DNA of 64,000 nt from Podospora anserina (taxonomy: Eukaryota): assembly GCA_017654855.1 (NCBI GenBank), contig CM030338.1, forward strand, positions 434,001-498,000, given 5' to 3'. A program made the translations under genes and the position numbers. This document shows positions 7,932 to 12,327 of this stretch, piece after piece. The notes beneath the pieces are model-generated. The model was not told the origin of the DNA and ran no database searches. It saw only the letters and a list, made by a program, of their open reading frames with translations. Each line of letters starts with the position of its first letter. The stretch's first letter is position 1.

Positions 7932-8333
7932 CTAGGTAGGTAGGTACCTAGAAAGCAAAGCTTGCAAACTTGAGCCAGGGTACGATGCACCTGCACGCCC
8001 CCAGTCCCAGAAGCTGTCTTTCTCGGCGTACGTGTTGCCAGCCGTGACACGCGACTCGCCTCCGGCGCGCAGGGAGCTGATAGCCACGGTGCTGTCAGTC
8101 TGGGGGAGATTCATCTCCTCTTTCCAGGCAGTGCTGACGAAATTGCCGCTCCGCAGCCTGGCCTTGTCCGTTACGTCGACAGACCCGATAGAAATACCAT
8201 GGCTGGCGGCGGCCTCTACCGCCTTCGCGCCGACAGCGCCGTCAACTTGGGCGGCCAGGATGCGGAGCAGTTCCAGTGTATCCTTTAGCTCCGCCGGCGG
8301 CCCTGCGCTGATCTTCTCGGTGTCTGTACACAT
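7932..8333 (-). CDS. HET-s-like prion-forming domain (HRAM) protein, HeLo domain almost entirely missing (possibly a pseudogene)
   Basis: Two pseudo-repeats, ISIGSVDVTDKARLRSGN and VAISSLRAGGESRVTAGN, followed by TYAEKDSFWD. These parallel HET-s R1 (NSAKDIRTEERARVQLGN), R2 (NSVETVVGKGESRVLIGN) and the EYGGKGFWD tail. The preceding LELLRILAAQVDGAV resembles the last HeLo helix. Confidence 0.85.
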   Translation of the reverse strand: MCTDTEKISAGPPAELKDTLELLRILAAQVDGAVGAKAVEAAASHGISIGSVDVTDKARLRSGNFVSTAWKEEMNLPQTDSTVAISSLRAGGESRVTAGNTYAEKDSFWDWGRAGASYPGSSLQALLSRYLPT

Positions 8334-8713
8334 GGGTTCGGCACCATTTCCCACCTACAACATGAAGGCGCCGAGCCTGGGCGGACGCAAAGTCAAAAGA
8401 TAGTCTGAATTCACGTCTAGATATTTCCAATTCCATGAGTGGCTGGGGTACCTAGGTACCTTAGGTTTCGGCGTCTACAGGGTGCATGTTTTAGGGAAAT
8501 CCTAGTTACCTCTAGGTACATCTACTTTATCTACCCTGGTCATCAACCCCTTTACATATAATCTGACATACATTAGCATCAGCCGCCGGGACCGCTGTTT
8601 TCTTCCTTCTTTTCCCCCTTTTCTCGCGGCGGGAGCCTTGCATCGGGTGTTGTTACTTCCAGGGCGATACGCACACCATTACCCTATTTGGTCTTTCAGT
8701 GCAGTGCCAGAAG

Positions 8714-11700
8714 ATGAACCACACTGAGCTCAACTAGACGATGAGGGCGGCACCGAAGGACAGGGGCTGGGCCGAGCATGATGAAGAGGGCCTAAAGAAG
8801 CAAGGCACGATCTCGATAGAGAGTCAGGTCGTCGACGGCAACGCGCGAGTCCACAACGGCAACAACGTCTACATAACCAGGCGAGCATCCACCTTCAATA
8901 GGCGCGATGCCGACATCCTGAACTGGCTGGCGCCACGCGTCAGCTTCTACCAGACACACGGCCGCATCCAGAGCAGGCGCACATCGCGCATCACGCCGAC
9001 TCGGGCGACAACGACAATTACCCGGGGAGGTGGCTCATCGAGTCAGACAGGTTCGATAAGTGGAGATCCGGCAGTCTGCTCAAATTATGGTGCTTAGGGA
9101 TGCGTAGGTCGCCCCCATGTCACAGGGTGTGGGGCACCAGACAAGGGGCCCAGGTTTCACCAAACCCACACCGGTTTGCTCGTAAGGCTGGATTTTCCTA
9201 CTGTTTACTTTAAGACTTAAAAACCAACAACCAACTTACTGTAATACCAATTTGTCAACCATTTCTGGCCATTTTGGCCCTCATTTTCGCCTTCATCGTC
9301 GTCGACGCTTTGGACGAATGCAAGCCCGAGTACTGGCTCCGGCTCATGAGCCTCCTCCAACCGGAGTCCAGCAACGTCAGGCTTTTGGTGACGTCTCGGC
9401 TGCTGGATGAATTCGACGAGGTTTCGAGCGACTCTGAGCAGATTCAGATCACGGCAAACTCGACCGATCTCGATCTCTTCATCGACCACGAGTTCAAATC
9501 ATATCCGCGGCTGAAGAAGTTCCTGAAGATGGACCCCACGCTCCAGGAAGAAGTGAAGAATAGCATCAAGAGCGCGTGCGATAGCATTTGAGTGACCACG
9601 ACTAAAATCGGCGCGGTAGAGGTAACGGGGCTAAAAGGTCGTAATTTGCCTAGGTTCTTGGTCGCCTTTCTCCAGATGCAGTCTATCGAGGCTGAGCGGA
9701 CCTAGGGGGGGGATCCGTGGCAGCCTATGTAGCCTCCCGCGCAAGATCGACGACCTGTACGAGCACACCATGGCACGCATCTTCGGCATGGAAGAGGCCG
9801 ACAGGAAGCTTGCCGTCGACACTCTGTCGTGGATCGCGTGCGCCAGCCGCCCGCTGGCCACCAAGGAGCTCCAGCACGCCCTCTCCGTCGTCCCCGGCAA
9901 CTTTGAGCTGGACTTGGACATGATATACCCCGAAGATGACATACGGGATGTTTGCGGCGTGCACTACACCACCCAGGGCTACTTCAGGGACCGCTTCTCC
10001 GGCTTCCACGCTACCATCGTGCAGACCTGCACCAGCTACCTATCCCTGAAGGTCTTGGAGCAACCCGATGACCGGGACGGCCAGATCTCGTTCGCCGACG
10101 ACGACACAGACGAGTCACGGAACCCGCAGGAGCTCCAGAGGTGCTTCGAGGCCCATGGCGCCTCGGCCGACAACCGCCTCTCATACTCGAACAAAATGAA
10201 CAAGTTTCCATTCGCCGAGTACGCAGCGAAGAACATCGCCTATCACCTGCGGAAGCTGAGCAATGCTCCGACAGCGCCGAGGATCGCGCAGTCGCTGGTC
10301 GAGTTCCTGCAGAGCGGCTCCAAAAGGAGCTTCCTTCTCCGAGTTCTTGATTCGTCCTACTATGCGAGTTTCTAATTTATGTCTGGGGGCGGTGACGGTG
10401 GCGGTGGCGGAAGCAGCGACGCCAGCGATGGGTTTGACGAGGTGGAAGAAGAGGAAGAGCCTGGGCCGAATAATCTCTGGCACGATATGATGGAAGACTC
10501 GCAATTCGACTGGTCATCTGATGAGGAGTCTAGCAACGACAGTCATTTTGCTTCACAGTCGACCGGATATATGCCGAGACTGGCGCCAGACCGTGAGGCC
10601 AATGCCATCCACCTGGCAGCCTTCCTCGGCTGGCCGCCAGCCGTGTTGTGGATACTTGAGACAGCCGACGCGCCCTTCGACATCAACATCCTCGATCCGG
10701 TTTCCAGGATGCCGCTGTCGATAGCGGTTGCCGAAGAGAACTGGGACGTGGTGGACGTCATCCTCAGCCACGGCGGATCCATCAATTTCCTCGACAAGGC
10801 AGGCCATAACATACTGCGGCACGCAGCCAAGAGCAACAAAGTCGACATCATCAAGCGCTTGATCACCACAAATCTCACCCTTGCTCCTGATCCTGCTCCT
10901 GCTCTTGCTCCTTACCCTCAAGCCCGCTTTCTCAAAGATGCGTCGCCGAAGGATGTCGTGATGGACGCGCACTCGCTTGAAATGCTCAAATCTAGCCCTT
11001 TCTGGCTGCCCCTTCTTGCCATTGTTCACTACATAATATCTCTACTTATGCTGCTCTCCGGTGGCAAGCTCTGGCAGCCAGAGAAGCCAGCGGAGGGCCC
11101 AGCGGAGAAACCGGGCGCCATTCCTGAGAACTGTAAGGAACAGGCCGTGTTGGAGGGGCAGGCCGCATCAGAGGCGCAGGCGTCTACCCCGGCGATACAG
11201 CCTAGTACTTACCTTCAGCTGATGCTTGCCGCAGGCCTAGGCGATATCGGCGCAATCTAAAAGCTGCTCGCGGCGGGCGAGGCGACCTTCCCGGCGGAGA
11301 TGTCGATGTTTTACATCACCGCCTCCTTCCTCGCCGTCGAGGCGAACCACCTGTCGGTTGTCGAGAAGATGCTAAAAAGCGGTGTCGGGGTTAACGCGCG
11401 CGGCCTGGGGCGCAAGACGGCGCTGCACATCGCTGCGGCCCAGAACTACGTGGAGGTCGTCAAGCTTCTTCTCGACCGAAACGCCAAGCTGGACCTGCGG
11501 GATGCGGAGGGCTAGATAACATACACAGCGAACGGAGACAGGGAGCACAAAGAGGGTGAGCATATACATATATAAGAGATTTCTCTTTGTTCCGTACGCA
11601 AAAGCTGACAGCAAGCTGGGGGAACCAGTGGTCCAACTTCTGCGAATCGCCGGCGCCGATCCCAACGAAAGAGGTCCGGCCGGCATCACGAGGTTATACC

Positions 11701-12327
11701 AGGCGGCGGCAAGCGGCGACATCGAGAACGTCAAGTTCCTGCTCCAGAACAGTGTCAACCCGTCCATCACTACCAATTACGGCTAGGCTCCACTGCACTG
11801 GGCCGCCAACAGCGGCCACACCGACTGCGTGCGTGAGCTGCTCAAGTGGAAAGTGGACCTGAACACCTTGTGGGATATCTCGACGACGCCGCTCGACATG
11901 GCCCGCCAGATGAACCAGACGCACATAATCAGGATTCTGCTCGACGCCGGCGCGAAGACAGCCGAGGAGGTTCTGAAGGAGATTTAAGGAGATAACATCC
12001 TCGACGTGGTACGCAGAGCAGAGACGGACGCAGGGGTCTCCCCCAAGGCAAACGCGTTTTTCGCTTCTTACGCCTCACTAACGGGAATCTCGACGAGTAC
12101 GACCAGGAAGCCGACCCGGAGATTCTTTGAAAAAGGGCCAGCTTGTCACGTATCGGGAGATTCGCGCCTTCGTCGCCCTCAAGCATGAGAAGTTCAAGGG
12201 CCTTGTCGAGGGCGGGTCAACAATGACACTACGGCTAAAGGTCTGCCAGAGGGCGGAGATGAGGAACATGCTAATCAATAGTATGGGCGGCAATGCGAGC
12301 ACGTATTGCAACTACGTAACTAGGTGA
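8714..12327 (+). pseudogene. NLR pseudogene: N-terminal amyloid R0 motif, NACHT, winged helix, ankyrin repeats
   Basis: R0 QGTISIESQVVDGNARVHNGNN; NACHT N-part DILNWL...GRWLIESDRFDKWRSG...LWCLGM; Walker B FIVVDALDEC; RLLVTSR; winged helix LSWIACASRPLATKELQHAL; ankyrins (AIHLAAFLG, TALHIAA, PLHWAA). In-frame stops at 8735, 10373, 11258, 11513 and 11784, plus frameshifts, a dead splice donor (TTGAGT, 9588) and no Walker A. The 3' end is approximate. Confidence 0.88.
9123..9290. mobile_element. Truncated MITE (copy B) within the NLR intron
   Basis: Shares ACCCACACCGGTTTGCTC, GGCTGGATTTTC and ACTGTAATAC...CTGGCCA with 7265-7420. It begins CAGGGTGTGGG and lacks a right TIR. Confidence 0.7.

What the first reader, a model, noticed from the sequence alone, without database searches (positions are those of the whole stretch)
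7932..12327. Divergent NLR / HET-s-like amyloid signalling pair with matched R0 and R1-R2 motifs
Seen: a minus-strand ORF ends in a two-repeat HET-s-type prion-forming domain (8004-8201). About 400 bp away, head-to-head, a NACHT-ankyrin gene begins with a single related repeat (8801-8872). R0 is TISIESQVVDGNARVHNGN, R1 is GISIGSVDVTDKARLRSGN and R2 is VAISSLRAGGESRVTAGN; they share alternating hydrophobics, [AS]R and a terminal GN. Established: nwd2/het-S and fnt1/hellf are adjacent gene pairs in which the NLR R0 templates the effector amyloid to trigger cell death. Inference: this is a further system of that class, now decaying. It uses ankyrin sensing rather than WD40 or TPR, and Ser/Ala replaces the first Asn-ladder position, so it may be a distinct HRAM subtype.
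Basis: partly seen in the sequence, partly recalled or inferred. Interest (0 to 1): 0.88.

Follow-up and report, generated by a model that had tools for sequence, protein, structure and literature searches.

The report
Decayed HET-S-like amyloid signalling pair
This is the wreck of a known kind of fungal cell-death switch (a receptor gene next to a prion-domain killer gene): the killer has lost its killing domain and the receptor is a transcribed pseudogene, while a related fungus still carries the same pair intact.

Summary
The minus-strand ORF 7932-8333 holds two HET-s-type pseudo-repeats (R1 8139-8201, R2 8031-8093). The divergent NLR gene carries one related repeat, R0, at 8801-8866. I built a repeat profile from 24 repeats of 12 other fungi. 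In 1,870 six-frame segments of the window it hits only these two ORFs (R0 25.4 bits; next best 6.9).

The pair belongs to the known HET-S/NWD2 (HRAM) class, and here it is dead. A metagenome contig, L001, is 86-88% identical in DNA and carries the intact pair head-to-head: HeLo+PFD, and a NACHT-type/ANK NLR with R0. Against L001 the window has lost 1,348 bp (HeLo codons 1-186 plus promoter region) and the native stop codon of the PFD gene.

The NLR has lost its P-loop exon, now replaced by a repeat-derived 171 bp. It also has two frameshifts, four in-frame exonic stops, a fifth stop in a retained intron, a dead splice donor and a 12-codon deletion. It is still transcribed and partly spliced. 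Another strain shows the same lesions.

Ankyrin repeats are not unusual for this class. The "Ser/Ala at the Asn ladder" detail is an alignment slip. Whether the motif family is a separate HRAM subclass stays open. Interest is modest.

The parts
7932..8333 (-). Remnant of a HET-S-like gene. It is a 133-codon ORF holding only the last ~30 residues before the PFD, the PFD, and a read-through tail. There is no HeLo domain.
   Evidence: Homology to the HeLo+PFD proteins starts at their residue ~188 (tblastn). It corresponds to L001 4759-5231 at 85.7% nt identity. PF11558 scores 18.5 bits, below the cut-off of 32.2.
8139..8201 (-). R1 pseudo-repeat (HGISIGSVDVTDKARLRSGNF)
   Evidence: for coordinates. 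It scores 24.8 bits against the family repeat HMM.
8094..8138 (-). 15-residue loop between the repeats, carrying the family's conserved AW[KR]G..LP stretch (here AWKEE..LP)
   Evidence: Trp is invariant in all 14 aligned sequences.
8031..8093 (-). R2 pseudo-repeat (STVAISSLRAGGESRVTAGNT)
   Evidence: for coordinates. It scores 12.4 bits and aligns to repeat 2 of the solved HET-s PFD.
8004..8030 (-). C-terminal aromatic loop YAEKDSFWD
7935..8003 (-). 23-codon read-through tail created by loss of the native stop codon. The window reads TTC TGG GAC TGG where L001 reads TTC TGA GAC TGA.
   Evidence: Of 13 homologues, 12 end 1-3 residues after the F[WF] motif and one ends after 6. The window ends after 24.
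8328..8530 (.). 203 bp of unrelated filler. It stands where L001 has 1,348 bp (3411-4758), made up of HeLo codons 1-186 and about 790 bp of intergenic DNA. The remnant ORF's ATG (8331-8333) lies in this junction.
   Evidence: blastn of the window against L001. 42 nt of it (8351-8392) also occur in a transcript of another locus, shown by loose ends on both sides.
8714..11987 (+). NLR pseudogene (R0, NACHT-type NOD remnant, WHD, ANK repeats). It is transcribed.
   Evidence: tblastn with the intact orthologue P0001. Synteny with the L001 NLR. RNA contigs cover roughly 9074/9106 to 12391.
8801..8866 (+). R0 motif (QGTISIESQVVDGNARVHNGNN)
   Evidence: 25.4 bits, i-E 8.8e-7. It is conserved in P0001 (13.6 bits) and in L001 (19.2 bits).
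8735..8737 (+). TAG at codon 8 of the ancestral reading frame, which starts at ATG 8714. The next in-frame ATG is at 8741.
8966..8979 (+). First frameshift, a 1-nt loss inside ...RIQ/EQAHIAH...
   Evidence: There is no room for an intron here.
9117..9287 (+). 171 bp standing where L001 has 416 bp (2361-2776). The L001 stretch holds most of intron 1, the P-loop mini-exon (GAGKS), intron 2 and the exon up to just before Walker B. The window stretch holds a degenerate copy (9146-9290) of a dispersed repeat.
9588..9653 (+). 66-nt intron with a destroyed donor (TTGAGT here, GTAAGT in L001). It is retained in RNA contigs and carries an in-frame TGA at 9589-9591.
   Evidence: Contigs of X16, X17 and X20 run through it unspliced (table 8).
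9703..9712 (+). TAG plus the second frameshift, at a run of eight G
   Evidence: Contigs of four independent runs agree with no gaps.
10373..10375 (+). In-frame TAA. Further in-frame stops lie at 11258-11260 (TAA), 11513-11515 (TAG) and 11784-11786 (TAG). A 12-codon deletion in the winged-helix domain lies near 9958.
11555..11627 (+). 73-nt GT..AG intron that is spliced out in RNA contigs
   Evidence: The joint 11554->11628 appears in contigs of X16, X17 and X20 and not in the DNA run X15 (table 5).
7269..7452 (.). Full copy of the dispersed ~184-bp repeat whose degenerate copy sits in the NLR
   Evidence: Depth is about 1,900 against 48 in the DNA run X15, with loose ends at 7266/7269 and 7452/7453. 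Pairing with 9146-9290 is shown.

Best explanation
The locus is the non-functional relic of a two-gene amyloid cell-death switch of the HET-S/NWD2 (HRAM) kind.

Ancestral state (shown by the intact orthologous locus L001): a HeLo pore-forming protein with a C-terminal two-repeat prion-forming domain was encoded head-to-head with a NACHT-type/WHD/ankyrin NLR. The first ~45 residues of that NLR carry one matching repeat, R0.

Ancestral mechanism (inferred from the established nwd2/het-S mechanism, not tested here): ligand-driven oligomerisation of the NLR would bring R0 motifs together into an amyloid template. That template would convert R1-R2 of the effector into the beta-solenoid fold, which releases the HeLo domain to kill the cell.

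State in this genome (shown): a 1.35-kb deletion removed HeLo codons 1-186 and the shared promoter region. It left a 133-codon PFD-only ORF whose start codon lies in junction filler and whose native stop codon is lost. The NLR lost its P-loop exon to a repeat-associated replacement. It also collected two frameshifts, four in-frame exonic stops, a fifth stop in a retained intron, a dead splice donor and a 12-codon deletion. The NLR is still transcribed at a low level and partly spliced.

Conclusion (inferred): neither a killing nor a sensing function can remain.
For: 1. Motif kinship.
- The PFD ORF finds 15 proteins at E<=0.001 among 1.84 billion representatives.
- All 8 full-length ones that I tested carry HeLo PF14479 (E 1e-33 to 1e-45).
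- The family profile hits the solved HET-S/HET-s HeLo domain (2WVO, 2WVN, 2WVQ; E 6e-64 to 9e-58) and the HET-s PFD (2KJ3, 2MUS; E 1.3e-5). No HELLF chain appears up to E 10.
- R0 scores 25.4 bits against the repeat HMM. Only 2 of 1,870 window segments hit.

2. Intact orthologous pair. L001 matches the window at 83-88% nt over five collinear blocks.
- It encodes a 292-aa HeLo+PFD (PF14479, E 3.4e-45).
- Divergently, 1,017 bp away, it encodes an NLR with R0 (19.2 bits), a GAGKS P-loop, NPHP3_N, WHD and ANK.
- The NLR has a 694-codon open frame running to the contig end.
- A second intact NLR orthologue, P0001 from Chaetomium sp. (886 aa), keeps R0.

3. Loss of HeLo. tblastn with 8 HeLo+PFD proteins finds only the PFD part in the whole 64 kb. 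The best match to any HeLo residues has E 0.23. The closest named relative, P0002 from Podospora bellae-mahoneyi (132 aa, 94% identical over 98 aa), also lacks HeLo. Its first 19 residues map antisense onto the NLR start, so the arrangement is the same there.

4. NLR lesions are documented.

5. The lesions are not assembly errors. An 8,280-nt contig of another DNA run (X15) covers 7423-12500 with 4 substitutions and no gaps, and none of the 4 falls on a lesion. Fourteen more runs hold 1.00 of the 215 sampled words of 7800-9800. Six of the runs at or above 0.98 may be the source itself.

6. Transcription. Contigs of 3 of 3 laid runs guessed to be RNA, from three studies, cover ~9074-12391 and show the GT..AG joint 11554->11628. 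The DNA run lacks that joint.

7. No sign of special constraint on the PFD. dN/dS of the window against L001 is 0.49 for the PFD (106 codons). For parts of the evident NLR pseudogene it is 0.19, 0.36, 0.46 and 0.34, and for the R0 exon it is 1.22.
Against: - The 133-codon PFD frame is still open. It is also open over the shared 98 codons in P. bellae-mahoneyi, where annotators called it a gene.
- Its dN/dS of 0.49 is below 1, so some constraint cannot be excluded. The counts are small (12.5 synonymous and 19.5 non-synonymous differences).
- The NLR pseudogene is still transcribed. Its first ORF (8741-9097, 118 aa) would still encode R0.
- The L001 effector itself ends two residues early, with TGA in place of the Trp codon of FWD. 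So 'intact' for L001 is not perfect.
- I hold only one contig of that organism.
- The amyloid and templating steps are inferred from the family. Nothing here tests them.
Confidence: 0.85

Rival explanations
1. The HeLo-less ORF is not junk. It is a retained, expressed, stand-alone prion-forming domain, a natural counterpart of the isolated HET-s PFD. It could form a harmless amyloid, act as a decoy, or cross-talk with another HET-s-type system of the same fungus.
For: - The frame is open in this genome and in P. bellae-mahoneyi.
- Both repeats, the loop Trp and the FWD loop are kept.
- It is 19 of 59 positions identical to the solved HET-s PFD, by hand count on the alignment. The HELLF preprint states 17% for HELLF.
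- dN/dS is 0.49.
Against: - The start codon lies in junction filler and the promoter region was deleted with HeLo.
- The native stop is lost, which adds 23 residues right after the aromatic loop.
- R2 scores only 12.4 bits, against 18.6 in L001 and about 30 in Colletotrichum.
- Its dN/dS is no lower than that of the neighbouring pseudogene.
- A 155-codon open frame on the opposite strand of the same DNA shows that long ORFs come cheaply in this GC-rich stretch.
Confidence: 0.08
2. The lesions are assembly or sequencing artefacts, for example homopolymer errors or a collapsed repeat, and the pair is really intact in this organism.
For: One frameshift sits at a run of eight G. The NOD gap coincides with a dispersed repeat.
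Against: - Independent contigs from four runs of four studies reproduce the sequence without gaps over the parts they cover. One DNA contig spans 7423-12500.
- RNA contigs carry the retained intron and cross the second frameshift, the deletion and all four exonic stops.
- No HeLo-coding DNA exists anywhere in the 64 kb.
Confidence: 0.02
3. The R0/R1/R2 likeness is a chance resemblance of short low-complexity peptides, and the two genes are unrelated neighbours.
For: The motifs are short, and pairwise identities are only 5-9 of 21.
Against: - R0 is the only hit outside the PFD ORF among 1,870 segments, about 18 bits above background.
- R0 is conserved in two orthologous NLRs.
- The same two genes are adjacent and divergent in L001.
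Confidence: 0.01

Closest known systems
het-S / nwd2 of Podospora anserina (HRAM1, the paradigm). Sources: PMC4518210 (sections read) and PMC3321046 (passages).
   Same: - The effector family has a true HeLo domain (E 6e-64 to the solved HET-S HeLo).
- It has a two-repeat PFD with a C-terminal aromatic loop that aligns to the solved HET-s PFD (E 1.3e-5 for the family profile).
- The adjacent NLR carries one N-terminal repeat.
- The layout is divergent, head-to-head.
   Different: - Here the HeLo domain is deleted and the NLR is a pseudogene.
- The NLR family uses ANK rather than WD40 repeats.
- Pfam PF11558 stays below its cut-off in the window and in 8 of 8 full-length relatives.
- Position 3 is aliphatic, not Asn, and position 18 is polar, not hydrophobic.
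- The loop is conserved and has an invariant Trp.
The het-s haplotype, in which nwd2 is broken. Source: PMC13449251, passages read.
   Same: It is a natural case in the same group of fungi where the NLR partner of an amyloid effector decays. There a TE insertion breaks it, and it is fragmented or deleted in some strains.
   Different: There the effector gene survives whole and gained an allorecognition/prion role. Here the effector lost its HeLo domain as well, and no new role is shown.
hellf / fnt1 of P. anserina (HRAM5). Source: bioRxiv 10.1101/2020.07.06.188508, passages read.
   Same: It has the same two-gene logic and two-repeat PFD, and it is a second HRAM system coexisting with het-s.
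   Different: - HELLF has a HeLo-like domain, not HeLo.
- The HRAM5 hallmarks QxFG (positions 1-4) and QG(QI) (16-18) are absent here.
- No HELLF chain is matched in the PDB up to E 10.
HeLo + double HET-s-motif proteins of other fungi, such as Rosellinia necatrix 'putative HETs', Colletotrichum 'small s protein' and Collybiopsis/Gymnopus luxurians FD-317 M1
   Same: These are the nearest full-length relatives of the window's PFD, at 32-39% identity for the named ones above (up to 44% among the other full-length hits) and E 1e-11 to 1e-5. They share its loop and repeat pattern. PMC9815663 (passages) reports one HeLo + double HET-s-motif protein in G. luxurians. That this is P0011 is my inference.
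   Different: They are intact, 288-307 aa with HeLo. The window copy is a C-terminal stump.

Membership tests
HET-S/NWD2-type (HRAM) NLR-effector amyloid signalling pair | The effector has an N-terminal HeLo, HeLo-like or sesA cell-death domain. | tested here: not met
   There is no HeLo anywhere in the window (tblastn with 8 HeLo+PFD proteins). The ORF has only ~44 residues before R1. The feature is met in the orthologous locus L001 (PF14479, E 3.4e-45).
HET-S/NWD2-type (HRAM) NLR-effector amyloid signalling pair | A C-terminal region with two ~21-residue pseudo-repeats. They have G at position 19, R/K at 15 and hydrophobic residues at 5, 8, 10, 16 and 18. The loop is 6-18 residues, and an aromatic tail follows (PMC4518210). 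| tested here: met
   In R1 and R2: G19, R15, hydrophobic or small residues at 5, 8, 10 and 16, a 15-residue loop, and a ..SFWD tail. The exception is position 18, which is Ser in R1 and Ala in R2. It is polar in 22 of 24 family repeats.
HET-S/NWD2-type (HRAM) NLR-effector amyloid signalling pair | The adjacent gene encodes an NLR whose extreme N-terminus carries one repeat of the same subfamily. | tested here: met
   R0 sits at residues 21-42 of the ORF from 8741 and scores 25.4 bits on the family repeat HMM. The gene is divergent and 380-407 bp away.
HET-S/NWD2-type (HRAM) NLR-effector amyloid signalling pair | The NLR has a working NOD (P-loop and Walker B) and a repeat domain. | tested here: not met
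   The P-loop exon is replaced. There are two frameshifts, four in-frame exonic stops and one more in a retained intron. The feature is met in L001 and P0001.
HET-S/NWD2-type (HRAM) NLR-effector amyloid signalling pair | The PFD forms a beta-solenoid amyloid or prion, and R0 templates it. | not testable with these tools
   This needs in vivo prion assays or ssNMR/cryo-EM.
Pfam PF11558 HET-s_218-289 (canonical HET-s PFD) | Score at or above the gathering cut-off of 32.2 bits. | tested here: not met
   The window scores 18.5 bits. None of 8 full-length relatives reaches the cut-off, and the best scores 22.4.
HRAM1 / HRAM2 / HRAM3 (hallmarks as written in PMC4518210) | Position 3 is Asn (HRAM1), Gln (HRAM2) or His (HRAM3). 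| tested here: not met
   The window has Ile, Ile and Val at position 3. In 24 family repeats there are 0 Asn, 0 Gln and 2 His, and 18 are aliphatic. Caveat: I did not see the logos or profiles. The paper itself says the HRAM1/3 border is blurred.
HRAM4 / HRAM5 | Gln at position 18 (HRAM4), or Gln at 16 with the QxFG and QG(QI) sub-motifs (HRAM5). | tested here: not met
   Position 18 is Asn in 13 of 24 repeats and Gln in 1 of 24. Position 16 is aliphatic in 23 of 24. There is no QxFG (hallmarks).

The most novel reading that the evidence does not exclude
The motif family seen here has three features: aliphatic at position 3, Asn/Asp at position 18, and a conserved AW[KR]G..LP loop with an invariant Trp. 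It may be a separate HET-s-related specificity class outside HRAM1-5. The Podospora-lineage stump may be a free-standing, still prion-competent PFD that outlived both its killer domain and its receptor. As such it could seed, or be seeded by, other HET-s-type amyloids in the cell.
Probability: 0.1. Interest if true: 0.6.

Novelty: new member of a known kind. Interest (0 to 1): 0.33.

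Why it matters
**Main value.** The locus gives a dated, base-by-base example of how an NLR/amyloid cell-death cluster dies. The intact state (L001) is available for comparison. Both partners are hit: the killing domain by one 1.35-kb deletion, and the receptor by a repeat-associated loss of its P-loop plus later point lesions. 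The receptor stays transcribed.

**Context.** The nearest named relative is a Podospora species. If the window is from that group, it adds the remains of a further HET-S-type locus to the lineage in which [Het-s] and HELLF are studied.

**Experimental use.** It supplies a natural HeLo-less PFD and a matched R0. These would be cheap to test for prion formation and for cross-seeding barriers.

**Annotation.**
- QC761_704007 of P. bellae-mahoneyi is a PFD stump.
- The 3' end of the Chaetomium NLR model probably reads into an intron.

For general biology the finding is ordinary, because the class, its gene layout and its mechanism are already established.

Tried and rejected
- **Whole genome.** None is held for this window, so I could not look for other copies or a displaced HeLo gene outside the 64 kb.
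- **Earlier notes of this scan.** Nothing by place, sequence or words.
- **Word-based homologue searches.** One returned only P0001 and one only the query's own cluster. They did not enlarge the family.
- **PDB search with the single ORF.** The top two rows are designed helical-repeat proteins (E 8e-4 and 3.5e-3). None of their matched stretches passes on its own. I set these aside as a composition effect of the Ala/Leu-rich residues 21-76. The HET-s PFD rows (E 0.0076) are the only ones with a real stretch.
- **Complex prediction of PFD 40-112 with NLR 1-60.** No verdict (score 0.10, mark 0.34). It says nothing either way.
- **ESM Atlas with the PFD part of P0017.** Feature hits of 0.80 and 0.77 to HeLo-like (PF17111) clusters are under the 0.9 lead level. 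The first structural row is a HeLo/HET-s_218-289 cluster (TM 0.56). I treat these as leads only.
- **Expression of the PFD ORF.** No RNA holder is listed on record. In the three guessed-RNA runs that I laid, no contig covers 7552-8287. This is no evidence of silence.
- **RIP as the cause of decay.** GC is 0.53-0.62 across the pair and shows no AT-rich signature. I rejected RIP as the main cause.
- **First related-loci run with 14-row alignment A2.** A 5-row alignment, A3, worked.
- **The other 19 of 20 loci.** They match only the HeLo part (23-31% identity) and carry no repeat of this family at E<=0.01. I did not study them further.
- **Co-location of P0017 (HeLo+PFD) and P0018 (NLR C-part, 44% identical).** It is suggested only by the same 'longest contig 8034' figure. 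I could not check it.
- **HRAM1-5 profiles and Podospora NLR tables.** These lie in supplements that are closed.
- **Literature.** Searches, and passages, did not name this locus. That does not show it is unpublished.

Full report
**1. What is in the sequence**

The minus-strand ORF 7932-8333 (133 aa) has this layout:
- about 44 residues of Ala/Leu-rich linker
- R1, HGISIGSVDVTDKARLRSGNF, at 8139-8201
- a 15-residue loop, VSTAWKEEMNLPQTD, at 8094-8138
- R2, STVAISSLRAGGESRVTAGNT, at 8031-8093
- YAEKDSFWD at 8004-8030
- a 23-residue tail

On the plus strand an ORF starts at 8741. It carries QGTISIESQVVDGNARVHNGNN at 8801-8866, followed by ...ILNWLAP..., the usual approach to a NACHT-type domain.

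**2. Is it more than chance?**

An exhaustive HMMER search with the ORF found 15 proteins at E<=0.001 (4 at <=1e-10) in 1.84 billion representatives. I aligned 12 of these and used P0017, the full-length cluster mate, in place of the fragment P0003. I dropped three:
- P0003, a fragment
- P0008, 42 aa
- P0015, an unrelated 475-aa repetitive protein matched in 4 stretches

This is alignment A2. From the 12 homologues other than the window and its near-identical relative P0002, I cut 24 repeats and built an HMM. Against all 1,870 six-frame segments of the window (105,852 aa), only two segments score:
- the PFD ORF (R1 24.8 bits, R2 12.4 bits)
- the NLR N-terminus (R0 25.4 bits, i-E 8.8e-7)

The next best segment scores 6.9 bits. 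R0 therefore fits the effector family's repeat profile as well as the effector's own R1 does.

**3. What family?**

All 8 full-length relatives that I tested have HeLo (PF14479, E 1e-33 to 1e-45). None reaches the PF11558 cut-off of 32.2 bits. The best scores 22.4, and the window scores 18.5.

The family profile matches solved structures as follows:
- the HET-S/HET-s HeLo domain at E 6e-64 to 9e-58
- the HET-s PFD (2KJ3, 2RNM, 2LBU, 2MUS) at E 1.3e-5
- no HELLF chain up to E 10

The single ORF aligns to the HET-s PFD at E 0.0076. By my hand count, 19 of 59 positions are identical.

Named members come from these fungi:
- Rosellinia necatrix ('putative HETs')
- Colletotrichum ('small s protein')
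- Neopestalotiopsis
- Daldinia
- Diplogelasinospora
- Collybiopsis/Gymnopus luxurians
- a Gonapodya assembly

So these are true HET-S homologues with a divergent HET-s-related motif.

**4. The NLR**

The N-terminal ORF found one intact relative. It is P0001 from Chaetomium sp. MPI-SDFR-AT-0129, 886 aa. It contains NPHP3_N (a NACHT-type P-loop NTPase), WHD and ANK. It has a single R0 at residues 38-54 (13.6 bits).

Against P0001 the window gene is broken many times:
- TAG at codon 8 (8735-8737)
- a 1-nt frameshift in 8966-8979
- everything from the P-loop to just before Walker B replaced (9117-9287)
- TAG plus a frameshift at a run of eight G (9703-9712)
- a 12-codon deletion in the winged-helix domain
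- in-frame stops at 10373, 11258, 11513 and 11784

**5. The intact orthologous pair**

A scan of metagenome contigs with a 5-protein alignment gave 20 loci. Only L001 carries repeats of this family. L001 (10,993 bp) is collinear with the window in five blocks at 83-88% nt identity.

L001 encodes two genes:
- On one strand, a 292-aa HeLo+PFD protein (PF14479, E 3.4e-45; R1 21.2 bits, R2 18.6 bits).
- Divergently, 1,017 bp away, an NLR with R0 (VAISIQSQVVDGDARVHNGNNFY, 19.2 bits). Its GAGKS P-loop lies on a mini-exon between two short introns. It has NPHP3_N, WHD and ANK, and a 694-codon open frame running to the contig end.

The comparison fixes the lesions in the window:
- L001 3411-4758 (1,348 bp: HeLo codons 1-186 and ~790 bp upstream) is replaced by 203 bp of filler (8328-8530).
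- The remnant's ATG (8331-8333) lies in that filler.
- L001 2361-2776 (416 bp, including the P-loop exon) is replaced by 171 bp.
- The intron donor GTAAGT of L001 reads TTGAGT in the window at 9588.
- The PFD gene's stop codon is lost. The window reads TTC TGG GAC TGG where L001 reads TTC TGA GAC TGA. Of 13 homologues, 12 end 1-3 residues after the F[WF] motif and one ends after 6. The window ends after 24.

L001's own effector stops two residues early, at the Trp codon. It is not flawless either.

**6. Real, shared, and transcribed**

Of 24 runs listed for 7800-9800, 15 hold >=0.98 of the sampled words. Six of those may be the source. I laid 4 of the 24.
- DNA run X15 has an 8,280-nt contig over 7423-12500 with 4 substitutions and no gaps. 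The lesions are therefore present in another strain.
- Three runs guessed to be RNA (X16, X17, X20; three studies) have contigs from ~9074/9106 to ~12391.
- All three show a GT..AG joint 11554->11628 that the DNA run lacks. This supports that they are RNA and that the pseudogene is transcribed and spliced there.
- Their contigs run unspliced through 9588-9653, which fits the dead donor.

The closest named protein is P0002 from Podospora bellae-mahoneyi (QC761_704007, 132 aa; 94% identical over 98 aa). It also lacks HeLo. Its modelled first exon maps antisense onto the NLR start. The loss is therefore older than that species split. This also suggests, but does not prove, that the window is from the Podospora group.

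**7. Is the stump under selection?**

Nei-Gojobori dN/dS of the window against L001:

| Region | dN/dS | Codons |
|---|---|---|
| PFD | 0.49 | 106 |
| R0 exon | 1.22 | 85 |
| NOD C-part | 0.19 | 98 |
| WHD-linker | 0.36 | 213 |
| ANK block 1 | 0.46 | 92 |
| ANK block 2 | 0.34 | 102 |

The PFD is no more constrained than the manifest pseudogene. The counts are small and the values mix both lineages. GC content is normal, so RIP is not the cause of decay.

**8. Mechanism**

Shown:
- homology of both genes to the HET-S/NLR class
- the matched motif
- conserved adjacency
- the lesions
- transcription of the NLR remnant

Inferred from the established nwd2/het-S mechanism (PMC4518210 abstract and sections 3, 7 and 9; PMC3321046 passages):
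- In the ancestral and L001 state, NLR oligomerisation templates the PFD through R0 and unleashes HeLo.

In this genome there is no HeLo to unleash and no P-loop to drive oligomerisation. The switch is dead (confidence 0.85).

**9. Comparison and novelty**

The class is well known. Of 155 HRAM effectors, 98 had an adjacent NLR with a matching R0 (PMC4518210, section 7).

ANK repeats are listed among the repeat types of amyloid-motif NLRs. The ankyrin point is therefore not new.

The 'Ser/Ala for Asn' point is a one-residue register slip.

At family level there are real peculiarities:
- Position 3 is aliphatic in 18 of 24 repeats (0 Asn, 0 Gln, 2 His).
- Position 18 is polar in 22 of 24 (Asn in 13).
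- The loop carries an invariant Trp in 14 of 14 sequences.

The text of the HRAM paper says position 18 is generally hydrophobic and the loop poorly conserved. Whether that makes a sixth class cannot be decided without the profiles, which are in closed supplements.

A 2026 survey of Podospora NLRs (PMC13449251, passages only) reports many pseudogenised NLRs. It did not name this locus in what I could read. Its tables were not visible to me.

**10. Verdict**

The finding is a correct observation of a real but defunct member of a known system. It is useful as an evolutionary example and as a source of test constructs. It is not a new kind of system.

Noticed in passing
window 7269-7452 (and the degenerate copy at 9146-9290): A ~184-bp dispersed repeat. 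In DNA run X15 its depth is about 1,900 against 48 for the flanks, which implies roughly 40 copies. Loose ends mark its borders. It also appears in RNA contigs. One degenerate copy (81-85% identical) sits exactly where the NLR lost its P-loop exon.
   Followed up: partly
window 8351-8392: 42 nt of the filler that replaced HeLo also occur, with different flanks on both sides, in RNA contigs of X16 and X20. A second, transcribed copy therefore exists elsewhere in the genome. The filler may be captured DNA from another gene's 5' end.
   Followed up: no
P0008 (42 aa, from an unnamed Logan contig of 1,747 bp): This is a copy of this same PFD stretch. Its differences from the window are almost all of the kind produced by C-to-T changes (Ala>Val, Ser>Phe, Thr>Met/Ile, Arg>Trp, His>Tyr). 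It looks like a RIP-mutated duplicate in some other genome or strain.
   Followed up: no
L001 5074-5085: The otherwise intact HeLo+PFD gene of L001 has TGA in place of the Trp codon of the terminal FWD. The protein therefore ends two residues early, inside the aromatic loop.
   Followed up: partly
window 11555-11987; P0001 residues ~855-886: RNA contigs splice out 11555-11627, and the frame then continues through further ankyrin repeats to TAA at 11985-11987. The Chaetomium model P0001 instead ends in a His/Thr-rich tail that matches read-through of this intron. Its annotated C-terminus is probably wrong.
   Followed up: partly
window 10864-11047: Depth is raised in all four laid runs (for example 72 against 48 in DNA, and 33-62 against 5-8 in RNA). 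There is a common loose end at 10880. Another, more highly expressed locus shares this Pro/Ala-rich stretch.
   Followed up: no
P0012 (Daldinia vernicosa, 148 aa) and P0016 (Daldinia grandis, 207 aa): Two more family members have most, or the middle, of the HeLo domain missing but keep both repeats. These are either gene-model errors or independent HeLo losses.
   Followed up: no
window 13442-14743, 2821-3768 and 20395-22269: The neighbouring genes look ordinary: a DUF6055 protein, an HSP20-domain ORF and a weak F-box-like ORF. L001 shares no DNA with the window outside the pair, so the cluster's surroundings are not conserved.
   Followed up: partly
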